Positions 11,217-25,827 of a DNA stretch of 25,827 nt are shown here, piece after piece. The notes beneath the pieces were generated by a model. That model was not told the origin of the DNA. It worked only from the letters and a program-made list of their open reading frames with translations, and ran no database searches. The DNA lies in NCBI GenBank assembly GCA_027117675.1, contig JAJAYM010000095.1:1-25827 (forward strand). The letters run 5' to 3'. The position numbers were made by a program, and so were the translations under genes. The DNA is from Actinomycetes bacterium (GTDB lineage: Bacteria > Actinomycetota > Actinomycetes > JAHEKZ01). The first letter of the stretch is position 1; each line of letters starts with the position of its first letter.

Positions 11217-11735
11217 ATGGCCGTCTACGCCCTGGGCGAACGGATACCTACCCTTGCCCCGGACGCCTTCGTGCATCCTGAAGCCGTCGTGATCGGGGCC
11301 GTGACCCTCGGTTCTGAGGCCACCGTCTGGCCAGGGGCTGTCCTGCGAGGTGACTACGGAGTGATCACCGTGGGTGCCCGGACCTCGGTGCAGGACGGCG
11401 CTGTGATCCACGCCACAGCTGAGCTCGCCACCGTGATTGGTAGTGACTGTGTGATCGGTCACCTCGCTCACCTGGAGGGATGCGTCGTCGAAGATGGCTG
11501 CCTGATCGGCTCCGGCTCCATCGTCTTGCACCGGGCCACCGTGCGCGCTGGGGCGCTCATTGGCGCCGGTGCGGTCGTCTCCGGTGGCACCGACGTTCCG
11601 GCCAGGGCGATGGCGCTGGGGGTGCCCGCGAAGGTGCGCCCTGACGCCGTGGCCGCAGGCGCCTTCGCCGAAAGTGTGGCGTTGTACGTCGCCAACGGCC
11701 GCAGGTACCGGGCTGAGCTTCGTCGCATCGATTGA
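11217..11735 (+). CDS. Gamma-carbonic-anhydrase-family (YrdA/PaaY-like) hexapeptide-repeat protein
   Basis: AVLRGD, VQDGAVIH, IGHLAHLEGC (three His ligands) and left-handed beta-helix repeats. Confidence 0.9.
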   Translation: MAVYALGERIPTLAPDAFVHPEAVVIGAVTLGSEATVWPGAVLRGDYGVITVGARTSVQDGAVIHATAELATVIGSDCVIGHLAHLEGCVVEDGCLIGSGSIVLHRATVRAGALIGAGAVVSGGTDVPARAMALGVPAKVRPDAVAAGAFAESVALYVANGRRYRAELRRID

Positions 11736-16732: not shown

Positions 16733-19420
16733 TCAGCCAAGAAGCCGCCGAGCCGGCAGATCGGTCCGACTCTGGGGGTGCCTCAGGGTGATCGCTGCGC
16801 CCAGGACCGCCAGGCCCTGCTCAGATGCCACGACCGGGCGAAGCACTAAGCGAGCCACCTCCGGCAAATCGTCGGCCAGCCGGGCTAGCCGGGCCACGAG
16901 GTCGCCGAGCAGTTCGCGATCGATCGCATGGCCGGAGCCGCCACGCCGCAATAGCCGAGCCGCCCTGGGTCGGTCGAGCAGCTCCTGAATGTCGTGGGCC
17001 GATAGCGGTGGAACAGCGTAGGCGTGGTCCCCCATCACGTCATAGGCAACTCCACTCAGCCCGAAGGTCACCACGGGACCGAAGAGCGGGTCCTCAGCAG
17101 TTTCGACGACCAGGGAAACCCCAGGATTCGCCTGCCGCTGCACGACCAGTCGGTCGTACTCGAGCGGCTCAAGATCAGCCAGGCGAGCAGCGAACTGGTA
17201 CCGAAGATCCCCCTCGTCGACGATGTCGAAGTAGACGCCCCCCAAGTCGCTGCGTAGTCGCAGGTAGGCATCGACCGTCTTGAGTACGACGGGGTAACCC
17301 AGTTCGGCCGCAGCGCTGGCCGCCTCGTCCGCCGTCCGGGCGGTGCGATGGGGCCACAGCCGCACGCCGTAGTGCTCCAGAAGTGCGGCGGCCGCGGAAG
17401 CGTCGAGGGTCCGTTGCTCGTGCATTCCGGCCAGCAACATGTTCACCATCACCCGAGCAGCTTCGACGTCGATCCCCTCCGGGACGACGGGAGTGTCGCT
17501 GGCGTGTTGACGCCACACGACGTGTTGGTGGACGGCCGCGAGCGCCCGCACTGCGTCCTCGACGGCCGGGTAGGTGGGAACCGCGCCCACCTCGAGCGGG
17601 CCCGGCGCGCGGCCATCGAGCAGCCTGTGGGCACCTTCGACGGCAAACATCACTGCCAGGATCGGAGTGTTCGCACGGGCCGCTACTCGGCGGACTGCCG
17701 CAGCCGCGCGGGCTCCGGTGTCATGCAGGCCGGGGACGTACATGGCCAAGATCGCGTCGACCGCCGGGTCGTCCGCGGCCGCAGCCAGTGCACGCTCGAA
17801 CTCCTCAGGCGTCGAGCGCTGATCGAAGACGACCGGCGGATCGACCCATTGCAGGCCGGCTCCAGCCACAGCGTCTGCCGCCATCAAGGTCATCGCATCG
17901 GAGTTGCCCATCGCCAGAACGCGATTGCCCTTGGGCATGGGCTGGGTGACCAGCAACTGCGCTACGTCGTACATCTGCGCAATGGTCTCGGTCCTGATCA
18001 CCCCGGACTGCGAGAACATCTGCTCAATAGCCTCGGGGCGCATTTGCGTGCTGCGAACCGCATGGCCCAGGGGCGCACCCTGCGTGGAACGGCCGGCTTT
18101 GACGCAGACGATGGGTTTGCGGGCTCCGAGCCGCCTCGCAATTCGGCTGAACTTGCGGGGGTTACCGATCGACTCGAGGTAGAGCATCACGACCTCGGTC
18201 GCGTCGTCGTCTTCCCAGTACTGAAGCAAGTCATTCCCGCTGATGGCGGCAGGGTTTCCGGCCGACACGAAGGTCGAAATTCCCAAGTCGCGTCGGCTTG
18301 CCGCCTCGAGCAGTGCGGCTCCCGGCGCACCCGACTGCGCAAAGAACCCGATCGGGCCGCAGGCAGGAACGTGCGGCGACAGCGAGGCGTTCAGCCGAAC
18401 GCCCTCATCGGTGTTGATGAAGCCGAGCGCGTTCGGTCCAAGGACCCGCAGACCGCAGGCCCGCGCCATACGCATCAACGACTGCTGGGCCGCCCACCCT
18501 TTCTGGCCGCTCTCACCGAAACCGGATGAGACAACAACCAGGTTGTGTACCCCGGCGACGGCGGCGTCGTGAACGATATCGGCAACGGTGGATGCAGGCG
18601 TAGCGACGATGGCGAGGTCGATGGGCGAGGGCGCCTCCGACAGCGTCGGATAACAGGGCAGGCCGGCCGCCTCGTCGCCGGCATTGGGGTTGATGGCCAC
18701 GACCGGCCCAGTGAAGCCGCCATCGACCACATGCCTGGCGACCGCGTACCCGATCGACATCGGGTTTCTACTCGCGCCAACTATGGCGACCGAGCGAGGT
18801 CTGACGAGCCGCGCCACCGAGTTTGCTTCGGCGCGTTGTTCGCGTGCGTGGGTAACGGCTAGCGACGACGCGGTGGGCGTGATGTCGAACGACAACGCGG
18901 CAAACCCGTCCTCGCGAGCAGTAGCGGCCGTGTAGCCGGCATGCTGGAAAACCTCAATCATCCGCGTGTTCTCCGGCAAGACCTCGGCGACGAACCGGCG
19001 CACCCCACGTTCGCGGGCTGCCTGGGCAATGTGTTCAAGAAAGATCGTGCCGAGCCCGCGCCCCTGGTGCTCGTCCTCAATGACGAAGGCGACCTCGGCT
19101 TCGTCATCGGACACCCGGTCATAGCGCACGACGCCGATGATCGCGTCGCCGATCGTGGCCACCAGCGCTCCACGGCCGTCGTAGTCGACGTGGGTGAACC
19201 GCTCGACGTCTCGATCAGAGAGCCTCGGGTAGGGGGCGAAGAAGCGGTAGTAGACCGTCCGCTCCGAAAGCCTTGAGTGGAACGCGATCAGTCCGGCAGC
19301 ATCGTCAGGCCGAATCGGCCGCAGGTGGCAGGTGCCACCGTCGCGCAGGACGACGTCGGCCTCCCACGCACTGGGGTAGGCCGAGGGCAGACCAGGCTCC
19401 ACGTCGGAGATCACAGCCAC
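16733..19420 (-). CDS. GNAT + NDP-forming acyl-CoA-synthetase-like multidomain protein (PatA-type protein lysine acetyltransferase)
   Basis: N-terminal GNAT ([16 protein letters not shown]), CoA-binding and ligase-like domains ([24 protein letters not shown]) and a C-terminal ATP-grasp-like region ([18 protein letters not shown]). Confidence 0.88.
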
Positions 19421-19533
19421 CCACCCACGCTACTGCTCGTCCACGGTCCCAGCGGGTCGGCGCGGCGTCAGAGGGTGGCTCAGGAGAGACTGGCCGGGTC
19501 CGCCCCGCGCATCCCACTGGAGCCCCGTCCCGC

Positions 19534-21975
19534 ATGGCCCGTCGCAAGTCCACTCCGGCCGCATCCGAGCCTGTCCGCGAAACGATCGTCGACGTCGACG
19601 TCGCTGATGAGATGCAGGGCAGCTTCCTCGAGTATGCCTACTCGGTGATCTACTCCCGAGCGCTGCCCGACGCGCGCGATGGGCTCAAGCCGGTACATCG
19701 CCGCATCCTCTACCAGATGGACGACATGGGGCTACGCCCCGACCGCGGCCACGTGAAGTCGGCGCGCGTGGTGGGCGAGGTGATGGGAAAGCTGCACCCA
19801 CACGGTGACGGTGCAATCTACGATGCCTTGGTCCGTATGGCGCAGCCCTTCTCGATGCGGTTGCCGCTGGTCGACGGCCACGGCAACTTCGGCAGTCTCG
19901 ACTCCGGGCCGGCGGCCATGCGCTACACCGAGTGCCGTCTGGGTGCTGCAGCATTGCTCATGACGGGGTCGATCGGCGAGGACGTCGTCGACTTCACCCC
20001 GAACTACGACGGCCAACTCACCGAGCCGCAGGTGCTCCGGGCCGCGTACCCGAACCTGCTGGTCAATGGCGCCACTGGCATCGCGGTCGGCATGGCCACG
20101 AACATGGCTCCCCACAACCTGGTTGAGGTCATCTCCGCAGCTCGCCACCTGTTGGCACACCCAAAGTCCGACCTCGACACCATGATGCGCTTCATCCCCG
20201 GTCCCGACCTTCCAACGGGGGGCAGCATCGTCGGCCTCAACGGCATTCGCGACGCATACGCGACGGGCAAAGGTTCCTTCCGCGTCAGATCAACGACTCG
20301 GATCGAGAACGTCACCCCACGCCGCAAGGGCATCGTGGTCACCGAGCTGCCAATGGGCGTTGGGCCGGAGAAGGTGGTCGAAAAGATCTCGGACCTGGTC
20401 CGCAACAAGAAGTTGCAGGGCATCAGCGGCCTCGTCGACCTCACCGACCACGAGCAAGGGCTCCGGCTGGTCGTCGAAATAAAGAACGGCTTCAACCCTG
20501 ACGCCATACTCGACGAGCTCTACCGACTCACTCCGATGGAAGACTCGTTCGGCATCAACAACGTCGCTCTCGTCGACGGCCAACCGCGGACGCTCGGGCT
20601 GCTCGAGCTGCTCCACGTATACCTCGAGCACCGAATCGACATCGTCCGGAGGCGATGCGAGTTTCGTCGCCGCAAGGCCTCCGAGCGCCGGCACCTGGTC
20701 GATGGCCTGCTCATTGCCATCGTCGACATCGACGAGGTCATCGCCGTGATCCGCGGTTCCGACGACGCCGCGCAAGCCAAGGAGCGTTTGATCGGCGTAT
20801 TCGACCTGAGCGATGTCCAGGTGACGTACATCCTGGACATGCCATTGCGCCGCCTCACCAAGTTCAGTCGGATTGAGCTCGAGACCGAACGCGAGCAGTT
20901 GGTGGCGACCATCGACGAGCTCACAACGATCCTCGACGACGAGAAGATCCTGAGAAGGCTGGTGTCCTCAGAGCTCGCGGAGGTCGCGAAGCAGTTCGGG
21001 ACCCCTCGCCGCACTGTTCTGCTCGAGTCGGCCGGCCAGCCAAGCAGCGCCGCCACACCCCTTGAGGTCAGCGACGACCCCTGCCGAGTGCTGATGTCGG
21101 CTACCGGACTGCTCGCCAGGACCGTCGACGAAGCGCCGCTCGAACCAGTCAGTAAGCGCGCCAAACACGACGTCGTCGTGGGCGACGTCGTCACGACGGC
21201 ACGCGGTGATGTCGGTCTCCTCACGTCCGCGGGCGAGGTCGTCCGACTGTCGGTCCTCGACCTGCCCACCCTGCCTAACACTGCCGCCGGACCGACTCTC
21301 TCCGGTGGAGCGCCGGTTCGTGAGTTCGTCGACCTGGCTCGCGGTGAGCGGCCGCTGGGGCTGGTGCCCCTCGACGGCCCGGCGACCATCGCGCTGGGCA
21401 CCCGACTAGGCACCGTGAAAAGGGTCACCATAGAGCCGTTGGCCAACAAGGCGAGGTGGGACCTCATCAGCCTCAAGGACGGAGACGAGGTGATCGGCGC
21501 AGCCGCCGCTACCGACACTGACGATGTCGTGTTCGTGACCTCAGACGGACAGCTGCTTCGCTTCGGCGCGTCAGCGGTCCGTCCCCAAGGCCGGACCGCC
21601 GGCGGCATGTCCGGCGTCCGGCTAGGTGCCGACGCAGAGGTGGTCTTCTTCGGCACCGTCTCAGACACTGTAGGAGCTGCCGTGGTCACCGTCGCTGGTA
21701 GTTCAGCTGCGCTCCCCGGCACCGAGGGCGGCAGCGTCAAGGTCACAGACTTCGGCGAGTACCCCGCCAAGGGCCGAGGGACCGGCGGGGTGCGGTGCCA
21801 CCGGTTCCTCAAGGGTGTGGACACGTTGATCCTCGCGTGGGTAGGACCGGCCGCCCCGATCGCCTGCGCCGCCGCCGGCGTCCCGATCGAGCTTCCACCA
21901 GCCGTGGGGCGACGCGACGGTAGCGGCGAGCCCGCCGGCCAACCGATCGCCGCAGTGGGTTCGAGCCGCGGGTGA
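19534..21975 (+). CDS. parC: Type II topoisomerase subunit A, actinobacterial topoisomerase IV (ParC) type
   Basis: [29 protein letters not shown] (catalytic Tyr), [18 protein letters not shown] and a beta-pinwheel CTD with no recognisable GyrA-box. Start reassigned to ATG 19534. Confidence 0.9.
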
Positions 21976-22844
21976 CGCTCACCTGTTCGGCCAACGGCCG
22001 TGCCATCGGCGAACCCCTCGCCGGCACCGCCCCGCACGCCCGACTCTGGGTCCTGCTCGAGCAGCCGGGGCCGTGGGGCCGCGCTGCACCCCTCGAGAGC
22101 CGCCTGCCCACCCAAGTAGGACAAGCGCTCACCGAGCTCACTGAGTCGCGTCCGGTTCGCCTGGGGCTGATCAGGGCCGTCGGTACACACGCCGATGGCC
22201 AGGCCACTGCTCGCACTTTGTTGGTCGCCCGCACAGATGCTGACCACTCGTGGCTTGCGGCTCGGTCGATTACCGATGTCGAGGCCCTACCGGGTGAGCT
22301 CGACATCGCCGCACTCCTGACGTCCGACGGCGTTCCAGGCGCTCTCCCTGGTGAGCCGCTGCCGACGCCGGTCAGCGCCACGCTGGTATGCACGAACGCC
22401 AAGCGCGACCAGTGCTGCGCAATGCTCGGTCGCCCTTTGGCGGCTTCGATGGCCGCAGACGCCGAACTCGATACCCAGGTGTGGGAGACCTCTCACACCG
22501 GTGGCCACCGCTTCGCACCCACCTTCGCCTCGCTGCCAGACGGGTACCTCTTCGGGGGTCCGAACGCCGCCTCCCGCAGCCTGGACGCCTGCCGCGGCCG
22601 GTCCGCTCTGCCTCCGGCGGCCCAGGTTGCCGAGCTCGCGGTGTTACGCGAACGTGGCGCGCGGCGACCGCGTGCGCTCAGCGTTGCGCGCTCTAGTGAC
22701 GACGGCTACCTCGTACGCGACGGCGCCGCAGTTTTCACTGTGCGGGTGACCGCCACGCCAGGACCTGACCGCCCCGAGAGCTGCGGCAAACAGCCGGTGC
22801 CCTCGTCGTGGTTCAGCACAACCGTAACCCCCAGCAACGTGTGA
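21972..22844 (+). CDS. Sucrase-ferredoxin (Apd1/Aim32-like thioredoxin-fold [2Fe-2S]) protein
   Basis: [20 protein letters not shown] (C-x8-C), [13 protein letters not shown] (HxGGH) and ESCGK. GTGA overlap with parC. Confidence 0.88.
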
Positions 22845-22889
22845 ATTGGCGGTAGCCATAACGACCGCTGCCTGCCACAGTGTTGGCTC

Positions 22890-23127
22890 TCGACCCCCTC
22901 ATCGGTCACGCGCACCGCGGACGCGTGACCGACCAGCCGATCATTGTCGAACGCCACGACGTGGACGCCACCGAGTCAGGTTGCCAGTCATCTTCGGTGA
23001 AGTCGCCGGGGAATGACTGCCACAGAAGGGCGCGCAACGCGGCTCGCACGGCGTCCGACAACTCGTCGGATGCCATCAACCGCAGCTCCACGTCACCAGT
23101 CGCCACGCGTTCGGCGTCTCTTGTCAC
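22890..23127 (-). pseudogene. Frameshifted, truncated remnant of an aminoglycoside 2'-N-acetyltransferase-like (AAC(2')-I) GNAT
   Basis: Frame 1 gives LRLMASDELSDAVRAALRALLWQSFPGDFTEDDWQ. After a 1-nt shift near 22976-22980 it gives LGGVHVVAFDNDRLVGHASAV. Together these match the recalled GDF.xDDWxHxLGGxH...HAxVV family signature. Confidence 0.7.
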
Positions 23128-23271
23128 ATGGCCAGCATGCCGCACTCACAAACGCGGGGTGTTCTCCGATTCCTGTGCGCCAGGAGGGCCGAGTGGCTCT
23201 GACTTCGTCTCTCGTCCGCTCGGGGCGCCAGGTGCAGCATCACGTGGCGGTCGGGCTACGAACCAAGCTGC

Positions 23272-25827
23272 TCACATCTGGCGCGTCAAGCTGACCTCAC
23301 CTGTGAGGTTTGGTGCCTGGCGCGGCTCCACCCCCTGGATTCCAGTGATGCGCTGCAGCGTGCCGGTCTCAAGATCGATGGCACACAGCGTGAGCCACTC
23401 GTTCTTGACCAAGTCGTTCACAGACTTGTGTTTGGCCAGCACTCGCTCGATAGCACAGGGCTCAGCGGCCACCACAGCAAGCAGTCGCAGCGGCTCGTGC
23501 ACCAGCTTTCCGTGGTAGCGCACCGACTGCTCGGACAGGCCAGTCAGCAAGTCACCGGACGCTCCGGCAAGCACACCGAGACCGCCGACTGGATTGTGAG
23601 CGGTCTTACTACCTGACCCGAGGTTTTGTGGGTCTGCTGCTGAGAAGAAATACTGGGCATTGATCCATTGGGCCACCACGAGTGGAGCAGTCAGGATCGT
23701 CTCGAGCGCCACCCCGGCGGCGTCGTTTCTCGCCTCGTAGTCGTGCAAGAAGGCACGGCCGTTCAGATCCATTCCCCGGGTCAGCCGGCGCGGCGCCGCG
23801 ATGAACATGGCGTTACCGACCAGCCCGTACTCATGCCGAACAGTGGCCCAGTCGCCTGACAAGCGGCGGGCTGTCGAGACGGCTCGTTCCTGGGTGCCTT
23901 TGACCAACGGAAGGGCCGCCGCACGTTCGGCAGTGGTGAGGTATCCGGCGCGTCGCAGGTCTAGGACCAGTCGGTGCAGATCCACCTTGCACTGGGCAGG
24001 TAGCTGCGGGTCACCGACAAACCTGACCTCGTCAGTTGCCGTGTCATGTTCTGCAGCCACGAAGGTGGTGTCTTTGGGAATCACGAGTCCACGTTCAGCC
24101 AGCTGAGCTCGGACGCCGGGGTCGTTCAGCGTTGATGCCGCGAGCCATGCGTTCAGCCCACCCCGTTGCCCTCCGCAGGCACCACAGTCGAACGCCGACT
24201 CGGTCGGATTGTTGGCCGACGTGCTGCCGTGTGCTGTCAAGACCACAAGAGGGGCGGTCATCGGGCCATGCAGGCCCGTCATCTGTACCAGGGCAGCAGC
24301 CGCATCGACGTCATGGGCAGGTTTCGGGCTCAATGCGATCGACCCTGCCTGTGGTGCTTTCGCGAACCACCCAGGAGACGCGGTGCGCGCCGTCGCTGTG
24401 AGACCACGCAGCGCGCCGATCTCGACGGCCGCAAACCCCCCGCCCACGCTGTTTAGGGCAGTGCTCAGTGCTGAGTTCAGCAGCTCGCGTACCGTCGCGG
24501 CCCGCCGATGAGCGACATCGATGGTGATGGTCGGCGAGAGCAACACCGGGTGGTGCATCGTCGTCGACGACCGACCCAGGCTCTGCACAGCGAATCCGAA
24601 GAAACCAGCAAAGCCGACGGTCCGGTATCGGCCCTCAGCTTCGAGGTGTCGGCGCATCGGTTCGCTGCGCGGATCGATGCAAAAGACCAGGTCGGCATCG
24701 GACCGGATCTGTGGCGCCGGATCGCCTTCCCGCGCCCGCCCCGCTAGTTCAGCAAGCACCGGAACCCGCTGCGCACTCTCGGCGGCGGACAGTGCCGCCA
24801 GCGCCGGCGCGCCGACAACCGCAAGCGTCGCTCTCCCAGCAAGCGGGCGATCTGCCACACGTAGTGCCAGCCTGGTCGCCACCCGGACAGCCATCAGATC
24901 AACGAGGGCCTCAACAGCAAGAGCCGCCTCAACAGTGCCACGGCGTCCAAGAAACCCGGACCAGCCAGGAAGCCTCAGCAGTTGTTGCCGGAGCCATACC
25001 TCGCAGGCGTCCACCGGCTCACCGGATTCCTTCACCCCGGCCACCACCACGTCCAACGCATCGGCCGGCAACATCTCCAGCCACGTTCGTGCTGGTGCCG
25101 TGAAGACCCGGTCATGCACCGCAACGGTTCGGAACCACTGCCAGAGGGACGCCGATCGCCTCGGGGCCGGCCAGGGCGCATCGCCTGTGTCGGTCCACGA
25201 GCTGAGCCAGCCGGCCACGACGTCATCCACCTGGCCGAGCGGTTCAGCAGGACGCGCCGGAAGACCGGGCAACGTGGCCCAGCCGCGTCCGGCCGCAACG
25301 CTCGTCACCGCCTCCCCGAAGGGACGGTTGATGAAACCAAGAAGCGGATTCGAGGCGATAAATCCTTGCCACGTCCACGAGGGTGGGATCGACTCTGCCG
25401 CAAGCCGCAGCTGCTGGCGCACGATGGCGCGATCCTCGACGAGGGCGGCGACCACAGGCGTCCAGGCCGGGTCTGGGGTGTGCCGACGACGCAGCCGCAC
25501 GGCTGAGTGGGGATGTGCCCAGCGATGCAGCCGGACCCACAACTGCTCAGGTTGCCGGTAGGTCAGCCAGGCAAAAGCCAAGGAAGTCACGAGCATGGCT
25601 GCCGCGACCGCCCAAGGCAGCACGCCCTGGGTCGTGTTGGAAAGCCTCAGGTAGCCACCAAGGGCGTGCACGCCGCCCGCTACCGCACCGACGACAGCAA
25701 CAGCGATCGCCGCTGCGATCACCTGAGTACGTACCCGCGCACTGAAGGAGAGCAGCCCACATCCCGCGGCACTGAACGCCACCACGAGCGTGACAGAGGT
25801 GACCGGTTGCGACCAAGCCCCCACCAC
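23272..25827 (-). CDS. dabA: DabA (DUF2309) inorganic-carbon transporter subunit, in frame with an N-terminal multi-TM segment (probable DabB-DabA fusion); 5' end cut off by the window edge
   Basis: IPPSWTWQGFIASNPLLGF N-terminal motif, FCIDPRSEPMRRHLE, GFAGFFG, AHGSTSANNP...DCGACGG, AEHDTATD, DWATVRHEYGL, RAFLHDY and WINAQYFFS. The frame is open to position 25827. Confidence 0.88.
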   Translation of the reverse strand: MVGAWSQPVTSVTLVVAFSAAGCGLLSFSARVRTQVIAAAIAVAVVGAVAGGVHALGGYLRLSNTTQGVLPWAVAAAMLVTSLAFAWLTYRQPEQLWVRLHRWAHPHSAVRLRRRHTPDPAWTPVVAALVEDRAIVRQQLRLAAESIPPSWTWQGFIASNPLLGFINRPFGEAVTSVAAGRGWATLPGLPARPAEPLGQVDDVVAGWLSSWTDTGDAPWPAPRRSASLWQWFRTVAVHDRVFTAPARTWLEMLPADALDVVVAGVKESGEPVDACEVWLRQQLLRLPGWSGFLGRRGTVEAALAVEALVDLMAVRVATRLALRVADRPLAGRATLAVVGAPALAALSAAESAQRVPVLAELAGRAREGDPAPQIRSDADLVFCIDPRSEPMRRHLEAEGRYRTVGFAGFFGFAVQSLGRSSTTMHHPVLLSPTITIDVAHRRAATVRELLNSALSTALNSVGGGFAAVEIGALRGLTATARTASPGWFAKAPQAGSIALSPKPAHDVDAAAALVQMTGLHGPMTAPLVVLTAHGSTSANNPTESAFDCGACGGQRGGLNAWLAASTLNDPGVRAQLAERGLVIPKDTTFVAAEHDTATDEVRFVGDPQLPAQCKVDLHRLVLDLRRAGYLTTAERAAALPLVKGTQERAVSTARRLSGDWATVRHEYGLVGNAMFIAAPRRLTRGMDLNGRAFLHDYEARNDAAGVALETILTAPLVVAQWINAQYFFSAADPQNLGSGSKTAHNPVGGLGVLAGASGDLLTGLSEQSVRYHGKLVHEPLRLLAVVAAEPCAIERVLAKHKSVNDLVKNEWLTLCAIDLETGTLQRITGIQGVEPRQAPNLTGEVSLTRQM

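What the first reader, a model, noticed from the sequence alone, without database searches (positions are those of the whole stretch)
23272..25827. Probable single-chain DabB-DabA inorganic-carbon pump in an actinobacterium
Seen: the DabA N-terminal motif (IPPSWTW...ASNPLLGF) starts only at about codon 137 of an open frame. Codons 1-90 (25558-25827) encode about three hydrophobic helices ending ...WLTYRQPEQLWVRL, followed by a basic/Pro-rich linker. There is no stop in between and the frame runs off the window. Known: DAB pumps are normally a two-gene PF00361 (NuoL-like DabB) + PF10070 (DabA) operon that couples a beta-CA-like Zn site to a cation gradient; fusions are a minority. Inference: the membrane segment is the DabB C-terminus, so this is a natural fusion. 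It sits in a core-chromosome context with no Rubisco or carboxysome genes in view, which suggests bicarbonate supply for anaplerosis or lipid synthesis.
Basis: partly seen in the sequence, partly recalled or inferred. Interest (0 to 1): 0.75.

Follow-up and report, generated by a model that had tools for sequence, protein, structure and literature searches.

The report
Natural fused DabB-DabA CO2 pump gene
The open frame at the window's end is the back two thirds of one roughly 1204-codon gene that joins the membrane channel (DabB) and the carbonic-anhydrase-like subunit (DabA) of a DAB CO2-to-bicarbonate pump; the fusion is real and intact, but it is already described and common in actinobacteria, so this is an ordinary new member.

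Summary
The window is a whole contig of a 74%-complete MAG. A second contig (C352) starts with the window's last 46 bases. Joining the two gives one frame of about 1204 codons: a PF00361 DabB module, a linker and a PF10070 DabA module. An independent public contig from another metagenome spans the junction without gaps at 98% identity. Intact homologues of 1205-1222 aa (45-73% identical) are colinear across it.

The zinc ligands, the Asp-Arg dyad, the "finger" glutamate and the NuoL-type proton-path residues are all conserved.

Natural DabB-DabA fusions are already in the literature: Acidimicrobium ferrooxidans in Desmarais 2018, Fan 2019 and the "CM" entry of a 2025 study. Lo et al. 2026 built the same B-to-A fusion to solve PDB 9rd0. 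Among the 80 best genome loci, 10 are fused, all from Actinomycetota. This scan has reported fused DabBA genes in at least five other genomes.

This copy belongs to a compact clade (DabB about 445 aa, no PF00662 hit). No Rubisco was found in this MAG or in 12 genus-mates, so the host is probably a heterotroph. The gene lies between parC and parE, head-to-head with a beta-carbonic anhydrase unlike the one in genus-mates. That pairing recurs in relatives and is the only mildly new point.

Verdict: new member of a known kind, low interest.

The parts
23272..25827 (-). 3' 851 codons plus stop of the fused dabBA gene. The 5' 353 codons lie on contig C352 (locus L003:47-1105, minus strand).
25558..25827 (-). 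Last three transmembrane helices of the DabB module (window-frame residues 1-90; joined residues 354-443; TM13-15 by the model's helix count).
   Evidence: hydropathy; AF2 model of the orthologue (helices 358-375, 382-410, 420-441)
25390..25557 (-). Linker. It starts with a conserved amphipathic stretch (L-W-x-R-L-H-R-W-A-x-P). A variable basic/Pro-rich segment follows, whose length changes only by whole codons between relatives.
   Evidence: model pLDDT dips to 65 here
23272..25389 (-). DabA module (PF10070), from the IPPSWTW motif to the stop codon.
   Evidence: E 3e-176; DabA2 9rd0_A, E 8e-92
24664..24684 (-). F-C-I-D-P-R-S motif: zinc ligand Cys383 and the Asp385-Arg387 dyad (window-frame numbering; joined residues 736, 738, 740). 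These equal DabA2 C351, D353, R355.
   Evidence: residue roles from 10.64898/2026.03.13.711513
24184..24231 (-). Zinc ligands His533 and Cys548 (H-G-S-T-S ... D-C-G-A-C-G-G), equal to DabA2 H524 and C539.
24415..24432 (-). A-A-V-E-I-G, holding Glu469 in the membrane-inserting 'finger' hairpin. It is the likely equivalent of DabA2 Glu444.
   Evidence: at least 90% conserved column in the 61-sequence alignment; my own register against the DabA2 string; helices 805-817 and 822-842 in the model
21972..22844 (+). Suc_Fer-like gene, the conserved downstream neighbour of the locus.
19273..21975 (+). ParC/GyrA-like topoisomerase subunit, the core-chromosome flank. The ParE-like partner lies on C352.

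Best explanation
The frame is the C-terminal 851 residues of a single polypeptide of about 1204 residues.

Shown:
- An N-terminal NuoL-like DabB module of about 15 transmembrane helices is joined, through a cytoplasmic linker of about 45-55 residues, to a DabA module. DabA is a pseudo-dimeric beta-carbonic-anhydrase-like zinc domain.
- The domain order, the open frame and the catalytic residues are all in place.

Inferred from the H. neapolitanus DAB2 structure and genetics:
- CO2 that diffuses into the cell is hydrated at the buried Cys2-His zinc site.
- The reaction is made one-way by cation (most likely proton) flow through the DabB channel.
- The coupling runs through the DabA finger hairpin and its conserved glutamate, so bicarbonate accumulates in the cytoplasm.

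Inferred from genome content:
- No Rubisco was found in the host or its genus. The pump therefore most likely supplies bicarbonate to carboxylases (acyl-CoA carboxylase, carbamoyl-phosphate synthase) when CO2 is scarce. It is probably not part of a carbon-concentrating mechanism.
For: Fusion is real:
- Unique 46-nt overlap between C95 and C352.
- Stop-to-stop frame of 1270 codons with an ATG start giving 1204 aa.
- Independent Logan contig L120 aligns ungapped at 98.1% over joined positions 25502-28934, with the same MNELV start.
- The same-genus orthologue on one contig (G009, L014; 73% identical protein) is fused.
- Contigs of 4 runs in 3 studies show no indels across the linker.

Identity:
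- PF10070 at E 3e-176 and PF00361 at E 2e-26.
- The best solved relatives are DabA2 and DabB2 of PDB 9rd0.

Intactness:
- C383, D385, R387, S388, H533 and C548 are invariant in the clade and across 61 homologues.
- The finger Glu is at least 90% conserved.
- DabB residues H220, K270, H299, H303 and K307 are invariant in 78 DabBs.
- Third codon positions differ most in all three regions, and linker indels are whole codons.
- The AF2 model of the orthologue has pLDDT 91 and pTM 0.92. Its N-terminal part matches NuoL chains.

Physiology:
- No Rubisco in the MAG or in 12 genus-mates.
- Bicarbonate-using carboxylases are present.

Precedent:
- An engineered B-to-A fusion complements carbonic-anhydrase-deficient E. 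coli (10.64898/2026.03.13.711513).
Against: - No functional or expression data exist for this gene.
- The Lys235 position of DabB2 (NuoL Lys229) is Arg here. It is Arg in all 16 fused forms examined and in 15 of 62 separate DabBs. The effect on ion conduction is unknown.
- The coupling ion is not determined. MpsAB was argued to use Na+ (cited).
- A conventional beta-CA is encoded head-to-head. It would tend to dissipate any bicarbonate disequilibrium if made at the same time.
- The MAG is only 74% complete, so the missing Rubisco, PEPC and PYC are 'not found', not 'absent'.
Confidence: 0.82

Rival explanations
1. Same fused protein, but sodium-coupled. It would work mainly as a cation-translocating or membrane-potential system in the MpsAB sense, with bicarbonate supply as a secondary effect.
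For: MpsAB homologues were first described as a membrane-potential/Na+ system and rescued a Na+-transporter mutant (discussed; PMC6689103). The Lys-to-Arg change at the TM7 lysine position shows that the channel differs from DabB2.
Against: DAB2 needs no sodium and does not rescue the nhaAB mutant. All other proton-path residues are invariant. The Arg variant is also common in ordinary two-gene DABs.
Confidence: 0.12
2. The gene is transcribed as one frame but yields two polypeptides. This could happen by internal initiation at in-frame GTG codons or by proteolysis in the variable linker, so that the working complex is the usual heterodimer.
For: The middle of the linker is poorly conserved, varies in length and has low model confidence. 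In-frame GTG codons lie near 25420-25470.
Against: No stop codon separates the modules in any of the 16 fused genes examined. The sequence just after the last helix (LHRW..P) and the start of DabA are conserved in frame. The engineered direct fusion is active as one chain.
Confidence: 0.08
3. The fusion is an assembly or binning artefact: a chimeric join of two contigs, or a collapsed frameshift.
For: The gene is split over two contigs of a fragmented MAG (375 contigs).
Against: The overlap is unique in the assembly. An independent assembly from another study spans the junction without gaps. Orthologous fused genes lie on single contigs. No indels appear in 4 runs.
Confidence: 0.02
4. It is the inorganic-carbon pump of an autotrophic carbon-concentrating mechanism, with Rubisco or carboxysome genes lying in the unassembled 26% of the genome.
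For: DABs were discovered as CCM components (10.1101/476713). The MAG is 74% complete.
Against: No PF00016 match in the MAG or in any of 12 genus-mates, seven of them at least 90% complete. The locus sits between housekeeping genes.
Confidence: 0.03

Closest known systems
Halothiobacillus neapolitanus DAB2 (DabB2 + DabA2; PDB 9rd0/9rd8/9rd9; Desmarais et al. preprint 10.1101/476713; Lo et al. 10.64898/2026.03.13.711513)
   Same: - Best solved relatives of both modules.
- Same zinc ligands, Asp-Arg dyad and finger Glu.
- Same His/Lys proton-path residues, and a non-acidic residue at the NuoL Glu144 position.
- The cryo-EM construct was a B-to-A fusion in the same order.
   Different: - DAB2 is naturally two genes in a chemolithoautotroph with carboxysomes.
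- DabB2 has 551 aa against about 445 here.
- Lys235 is Arg here.
- About 35% identity in the DabA module.
- The natural linker here is about 45-55 aa, whereas the engineered fusion is a direct join.
Acidimicrobium ferrooxidans single-subunit 'CM' DAC / fused mpsA-mpsB (PMC6689103; PMC11934965 Table 1, citing Schmid et al. 2021)
   Same: A natural single gene with the membrane module followed by the cytoplasmic module, in an actinobacterial phylum member.
   Different: - The published gene is 4149 bp (about 1382 aa), which is the long form. This one is about 1204 aa, in a separate well-supported compact clade, with no PF00662 hit.
- That host is an iron-oxidising acidophile. This host is an uncultured heterotroph-like actinomycete seen in glacier, biofilm and microbial-mat metagenomes.
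- The A. ferrooxidans sequence itself was not compared here.
Staphylococcus aureus MpsAB
   Same: PF00361 + PF10070 system in a non-autotroph. It substitutes for carbonic anhydrase for growth in air (PMC6689103), which is the physiological role proposed here.
   Different: Two genes. Argued to be Na+-linked. This genome also keeps a beta-CA right next to the pump.
Long-form fused DabBA of Actinomycetota (Micromonospora, Humibacillus, Terracoccus; also genus-mates G006-G008, 1421-1422 aa frames)
   Same: Same fused order. All fused forms fall on one side of a branch in the DabA tree once a truncated row is removed (support only 20, so not shown).
   Different: About 130-220 residues longer. One (G007) is followed by a P-II gene. 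They sit at other loci.

Membership tests
DAB / DAC / MpsAB inorganic-carbon pump | DabA (PF10070/DUF2309) domain above the Pfam gathering score | tested here: met
   588.5 bits against a cut-off of 25; DabA2 9rd0_A at E 8e-92
DAB / DAC / MpsAB inorganic-carbon pump | Beta-CA-like zinc site: Cys, His and Cys ligands plus the Asp-Arg dyad (DabA2 C351, H524, C539, D353, R355) | tested here: met
   C383, H533, C548, D385 and R387 aligned; invariant; codons located
DAB / DAC / MpsAB inorganic-carbon pump | PF00361 NuoL-like partner that is DabB-like rather than a complex I or Mrp subunit | tested here: met
   PF00361 at E 2e-26. The best PDB hit is DabB2 at E 9e-32, against 1e-22 for the best ND5. 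No nuo or mrp genes lie beside it.
DAB / DAC / MpsAB inorganic-carbon pump | Conserved proton-path residues of DabB (His260, the TM10 Lys, His339, His343, Lys347, Asp185, Lys235 of DabB2) | tested here: inconclusive
   H220, K270, H299, H303, K307 and D146 are conserved, but the Lys235 position is Arg195. Arg is also found in 15 of 62 two-gene DabBs, so this probably lies within family variation.
DAB / DAC / MpsAB inorganic-carbon pump | DabA finger hairpin with the conserved Glu (DabA2 E444) | tested here: met
   The Glu in F-A-A-V-E is at least 90% conserved over 61 sequences. Two helices are modelled at 805-842 in the orthologue. The register against DabA2 was set by eye, because HMMER's own alignment is shifted by 4 residues.
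DAB / DAC / MpsAB inorganic-carbon pump | Energy-dependent Ci uptake, or rescue of carbonic-anhydrase-free E. coli in air | not testable with these tools
   Requires expression and growth or 14C-uptake assays.
Natural single-chain (CM-type) DabB-DabA fusion | One uninterrupted frame, DabB N-terminal and DabA C-terminal | tested here: met
Natural single-chain (CM-type) DabB-DabA fusion | Long-form architecture (about 1340-1420 aa, some with PF00662) as in the published A. ferrooxidans gene | tested here: not met
   About 1204 aa; only PF00361 is hit; separate compact clade with 100* support. It is a compact variant of the fused kind.
Autotrophic CO2-concentrating mechanism component | Rubisco (and carboxysome) in the same genome | tested here: not met
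   No PF00016 in the 74%-complete MAG or in 12 genus-mates. This means 'not found', not proven absence.

The most novel reading that the evidence does not exclude
The compact fused DAB and the head-to-head beta-carbonic anhydrase form a co-inherited inorganic-carbon module, with a MarR-type regulator between or beside them in some relatives.

Observations behind this reading:
- The pair recurs in five lineages (G000, L120, G009, L121, L122), whose DabBA proteins fall to 53% identity with the window's. In one lineage it has a different flank (TerC instead of ParE).
- The beta-CA of DabBA-carrying species is only 53-57% identical to the beta-CA at the same locus in 11 genus-mates that lack the pump. 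The flanking ParE is 86-95% identical.

If the two genes really work together, this would be an undescribed two-tier bicarbonate-supply system in heterotrophs of cold, CO2-poor habitats. One option is an equilibrating CA for normal CO2 and an energised one-way CA for scarcity, under one control region.
Probability: 0.25. Interest if true: 0.45.

Novelty: new member of a known kind. Interest (0 to 1): 0.2.

Why it matters
The finding has little discovery value. Single-chain DabB-DabA pumps are published, have been tested heterologously, and were used as the design template for the first DAB structure.

It has some practical use:
- It shows that a gene cut by a contig end can be completed from a second contig and checked against independent assemblies.
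- It adds a compact (about 1204 aa) natural fusion from a cold-habitat heterotroph. Such short one-gene pumps are convenient parts for engineering bicarbonate supply.
- The recurrent pairing with a conventional beta-CA is a small testable lead on how heterotrophs combine the two ways of making bicarbonate.

Tried and rejected
- **Foldseek against PDB.** It returned only NuoL/ND5 chains for the N-terminal third. The library copy did not return 9rd0, so no structural superposition on DAB2 was possible. The link to DAB2 rests on sequence.
- **Expression.** No RNA holder was listed for the stretch, so nothing can be said about expression.
- **Read laying.** It could only be run on the window side. 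It showed contigs running past the window's end but not what follows. That gap was closed through contig L120.
- **Remnants in genus-mates.** I looked for DabBA remnants at the parC-parE locus of genus-mates that lack the gene and found none. The AhpC-like gene that lies there in relatives was not found anywhere in G000.
- **Beta-CA next to more distant compact fusions.** None was found within the flanks of L019-L023 or L124, so the pairing is confined to the nearer subclade.
- **Other carboxylases.** PEP carboxylase and pyruvate carboxylase were not found in the 74%-complete MAG. No conclusion is drawn.
- **Number of fusion events.** The apparent second change on the tree came from a row cut by a contig end (L092). 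Without it, all fused rows sit together with support of only 20. One origin is neither shown nor rejected.
- **Organism name.** The family was not named.
- **Codon comparison.** My first run used a start coordinate two bases off and is void. One search replaces it.
Full report
**What is in the window.** The minus strand from 23272 to 25827 carries an 851-codon frame that reaches the last base of the window. The window is an entire contig, C95 of a 375-contig MAG that is 74% complete. The frame scores 588 bits on PF10070 DabA. IPPSWTW starts at codon 147 rather than 137, the hydrophobic part ends with WLTYRQPEQLWVRL at codons 87-100, and codons 91-136 are rich in Arg, His and Pro.

**Completing the gene.** Contig C352 begins with exactly the last 46 bases of the window, and no other contig shares them. 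In the joined sequence the frame stays open for 1270 codons. An ATG conserved in the orthologue (MNELV...) gives about 1204 residues. The 353 upstream residues hit PF00361. Their best solved relative is DabB2 of PDB 9rd0 at E 9e-32, ahead of every NuoL/ND5 chain.

Three independent lines support the join:
- Full-length database proteins of 1205-1222 aa, 45-73% identical, align colinearly across the junction.
- A same-genus genome (G009) has the orthologue on one contig in a 1295-codon open frame.
- A Logan contig from a biofilm metagenome in a different study (L120, 3433 nt) aligns without gaps at 98.1% to joined positions 25502-28934, straight across the junction. Its gene call starts at the same MNELV.

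Contigs from four runs in three studies cover the linker at 25420-25560 with no insertions or deletions.

**Is it intact?** The zinc ligands and the Asp-Arg dyad (C383, D385, R387, H533, C548 in window-frame numbering; add 353 for the joined protein) align to DabA2 C351, D353, R355, H524 and C539. They are invariant in the clade and across 61 homologues. A glutamate in F-A-A-V-E (E469) sits in a column conserved at 90% or more. It corresponds, in my register, to the finger Glu444 that Lo et al. found essential.

In the DabB module the NuoL-type residues H220, K270, H299, H303 and K307 are invariant in 78 DabBs. The NuoL Glu144 position is Val, as in DabB2 where it is Ile. The Lys235 position is Arg. 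Arg is found in all 16 fused forms but also in 15 of 62 two-gene DabBs.

Against three relatives, differences concentrate at third codon positions in the DabB, linker and DabA regions alike, and linker indels are whole codons. An AlphaFold2 model of the 73%-identical orthologue is confident (pLDDT 91, pTM 0.92). It has about 15 membrane helices, a short amphipathic helix, a low-confidence linker and then the DabA fold. The membrane part matches NuoL chains.

**How it most likely works.** The mechanism is inferred by homology to DAB2. CO2 entering by diffusion is hydrated at the buried zinc site of the cytoplasmic DabA module. Cation flow, probably of protons, through the DabB half-channels and the inserted DabA finger makes the reaction one-way, so bicarbonate accumulates. 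The basic linker after the last helix fits a cytoplasmic location. None of this was measured here.

**Physiological setting.** No Rubisco was found in this MAG or in 12 genus-mates, seven of them at least 90% complete. The MAG holds one DabA and one beta-CA. It also holds acyl-CoA carboxyltransferase, biotin carboxylase and CarB. PEPC and PYC were not found. The surroundings are housekeeping genes: aconitase, trkA, dut, ferrochelatase, DUF5998, parC-like and parE-like. Public runs that hold the sequence are glacier, biofilm and microbial-mat metagenomes.

**Comparison with what is known.**
- The Desmarais et al. preprint already used an apparent DabA:DabB fusion in Acidimicrobium ferrooxidans to argue topology.
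- Fan et al. 2019 state that mpsA and mpsB are a single fused gene there.
- A 2025 study lists that 4149-bp 'CM' fusion among Ci uptake candidates, citing Schmid et al. 2021.
- Lo et al. 2026 fused DabB2 to DabA2 'mirroring' the natural system. They showed the fusion complements CA-deficient E. coli and solved its structure.

In the 80 best loci from species-representative genomes, 10 are fused. All 10 are Actinomycetota, and every other complete locus has dabB immediately upstream of dabA. In the window's own family every DabA match lies in a frame of more than 1290 codons. Earlier reports of this scan reached the same verdict for fused genes in other genomes.

**What is particular here.**
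1. The gene belongs to a compact clade of about 1204-1222 aa, with 100* support. Its DabB module is about 445 aa against 551 for DabB2, and it has no PF00662 hit. Genus-mates G006-G008 carry a different, long fused form (1421-1422-codon frames) elsewhere. With a contig-truncated row removed, all fused forms group together, but with negligible support.
2. The gene lies between parC/Suc_Fer and parE, head-to-head with a full-length Rv1284-type beta-CA. The four genus-mates whose loci were fetched have the same locus without dabBA. All 11 genus-mates without the window-type pump that hold a beta-CA carry one only 53-57% identical to the window's, although their beta-CAs are 76-97% identical to one another and ParE is 86-95% identical.
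3. The dabBA/beta-CA pair recurs in G009 and in the metagenomic contigs L120, L121 and L122, where DabBA falls to 53% identity with the window's. L121 has a MarR-like gene between the two and a TerC flank instead of ParE. L125 has MarR beside dabBA at the AhpC/Suc_Fer/parC side, but its contig ends before any beta-CA.
4. More distant compact fusions lack the beta-CA neighbour. Whether this reflects a functional module, a locus replacement by recombination, or shared ancestry with loss is open.

**Verdict.** The gene is an intact, compact member of the known single-chain DAB family. The beta-CA pairing is a modest side lead.

Noticed in passing
L003:1224-1763 (+), contig C352, about 100 bp upstream of and divergent from the dabBA start: A full-length Rv1284-type beta-carbonic anhydrase with intact C-x-D-x-R and H-x-x-C motifs. 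It is only 53-57% identical to the beta-CA at the same locus in 11 genus-mates, whose copies are 76-97% identical to one another. The pairing with a compact fused dabBA recurs in G009, L120, L121 and L122.
   Followed up: partly
L121:3376-3768 (+) and L125:165-521 (-): A MarR-like gene lies between or beside dabBA and the beta-CA in two metagenomic relatives. No such gene is present in the roughly 100-bp intergenic region of G000. It is a possible regulator of the pair.
   Followed up: no
L003:1760-2032 (-), also L014:805-1077 and L121:4452-4724: A conserved 90-aa hydrophobic protein with no Pfam match always lies just downstream of the beta-CA. This holds in genomes with and without dabBA, and also where the flank is TerC instead of ParE.
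   Followed up: partly
G004:C3:23389-24281 (L012, L013): One genus-mate has only two short DabA-like fragments, in open frames of 436 and 123 codons (E 6e-26 and 2e-12). They are possibly a decayed copy.
   Followed up: no
L015:6584-6931 (-), G007: The long-form fused dabBA of a genus-mate is followed directly by a P-II family gene (PF00543).
   Followed up: no
joined residue 195 (on C352): The TM7 lysine of NuoL and DabB2 (K229/K235) is arginine in all 16 fused DabBs examined. In two-gene DabBs it varies: K 32, R 15, Q 15.
   Followed up: partly
window 11217-11735 (+): A hexapeptide-repeat (gamma-CA-like, PF00132) protein lies in the same window. It could be a third carbonic-anhydrase-type gene near the locus. 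Activity residues were not checked.
   Followed up: no
window 22845-23271: The AhpC/redoxin gene that sits between Suc_Fer and dabBA (or the beta-CA) in G009, L125 and the genus-mates is missing here. Only a 79-codon ORF without a family match (22906-23145, minus strand) occupies the gap.
   Followed up: partly
Pfam hits were confirmed here and nothing more was done.
   Followed up: no
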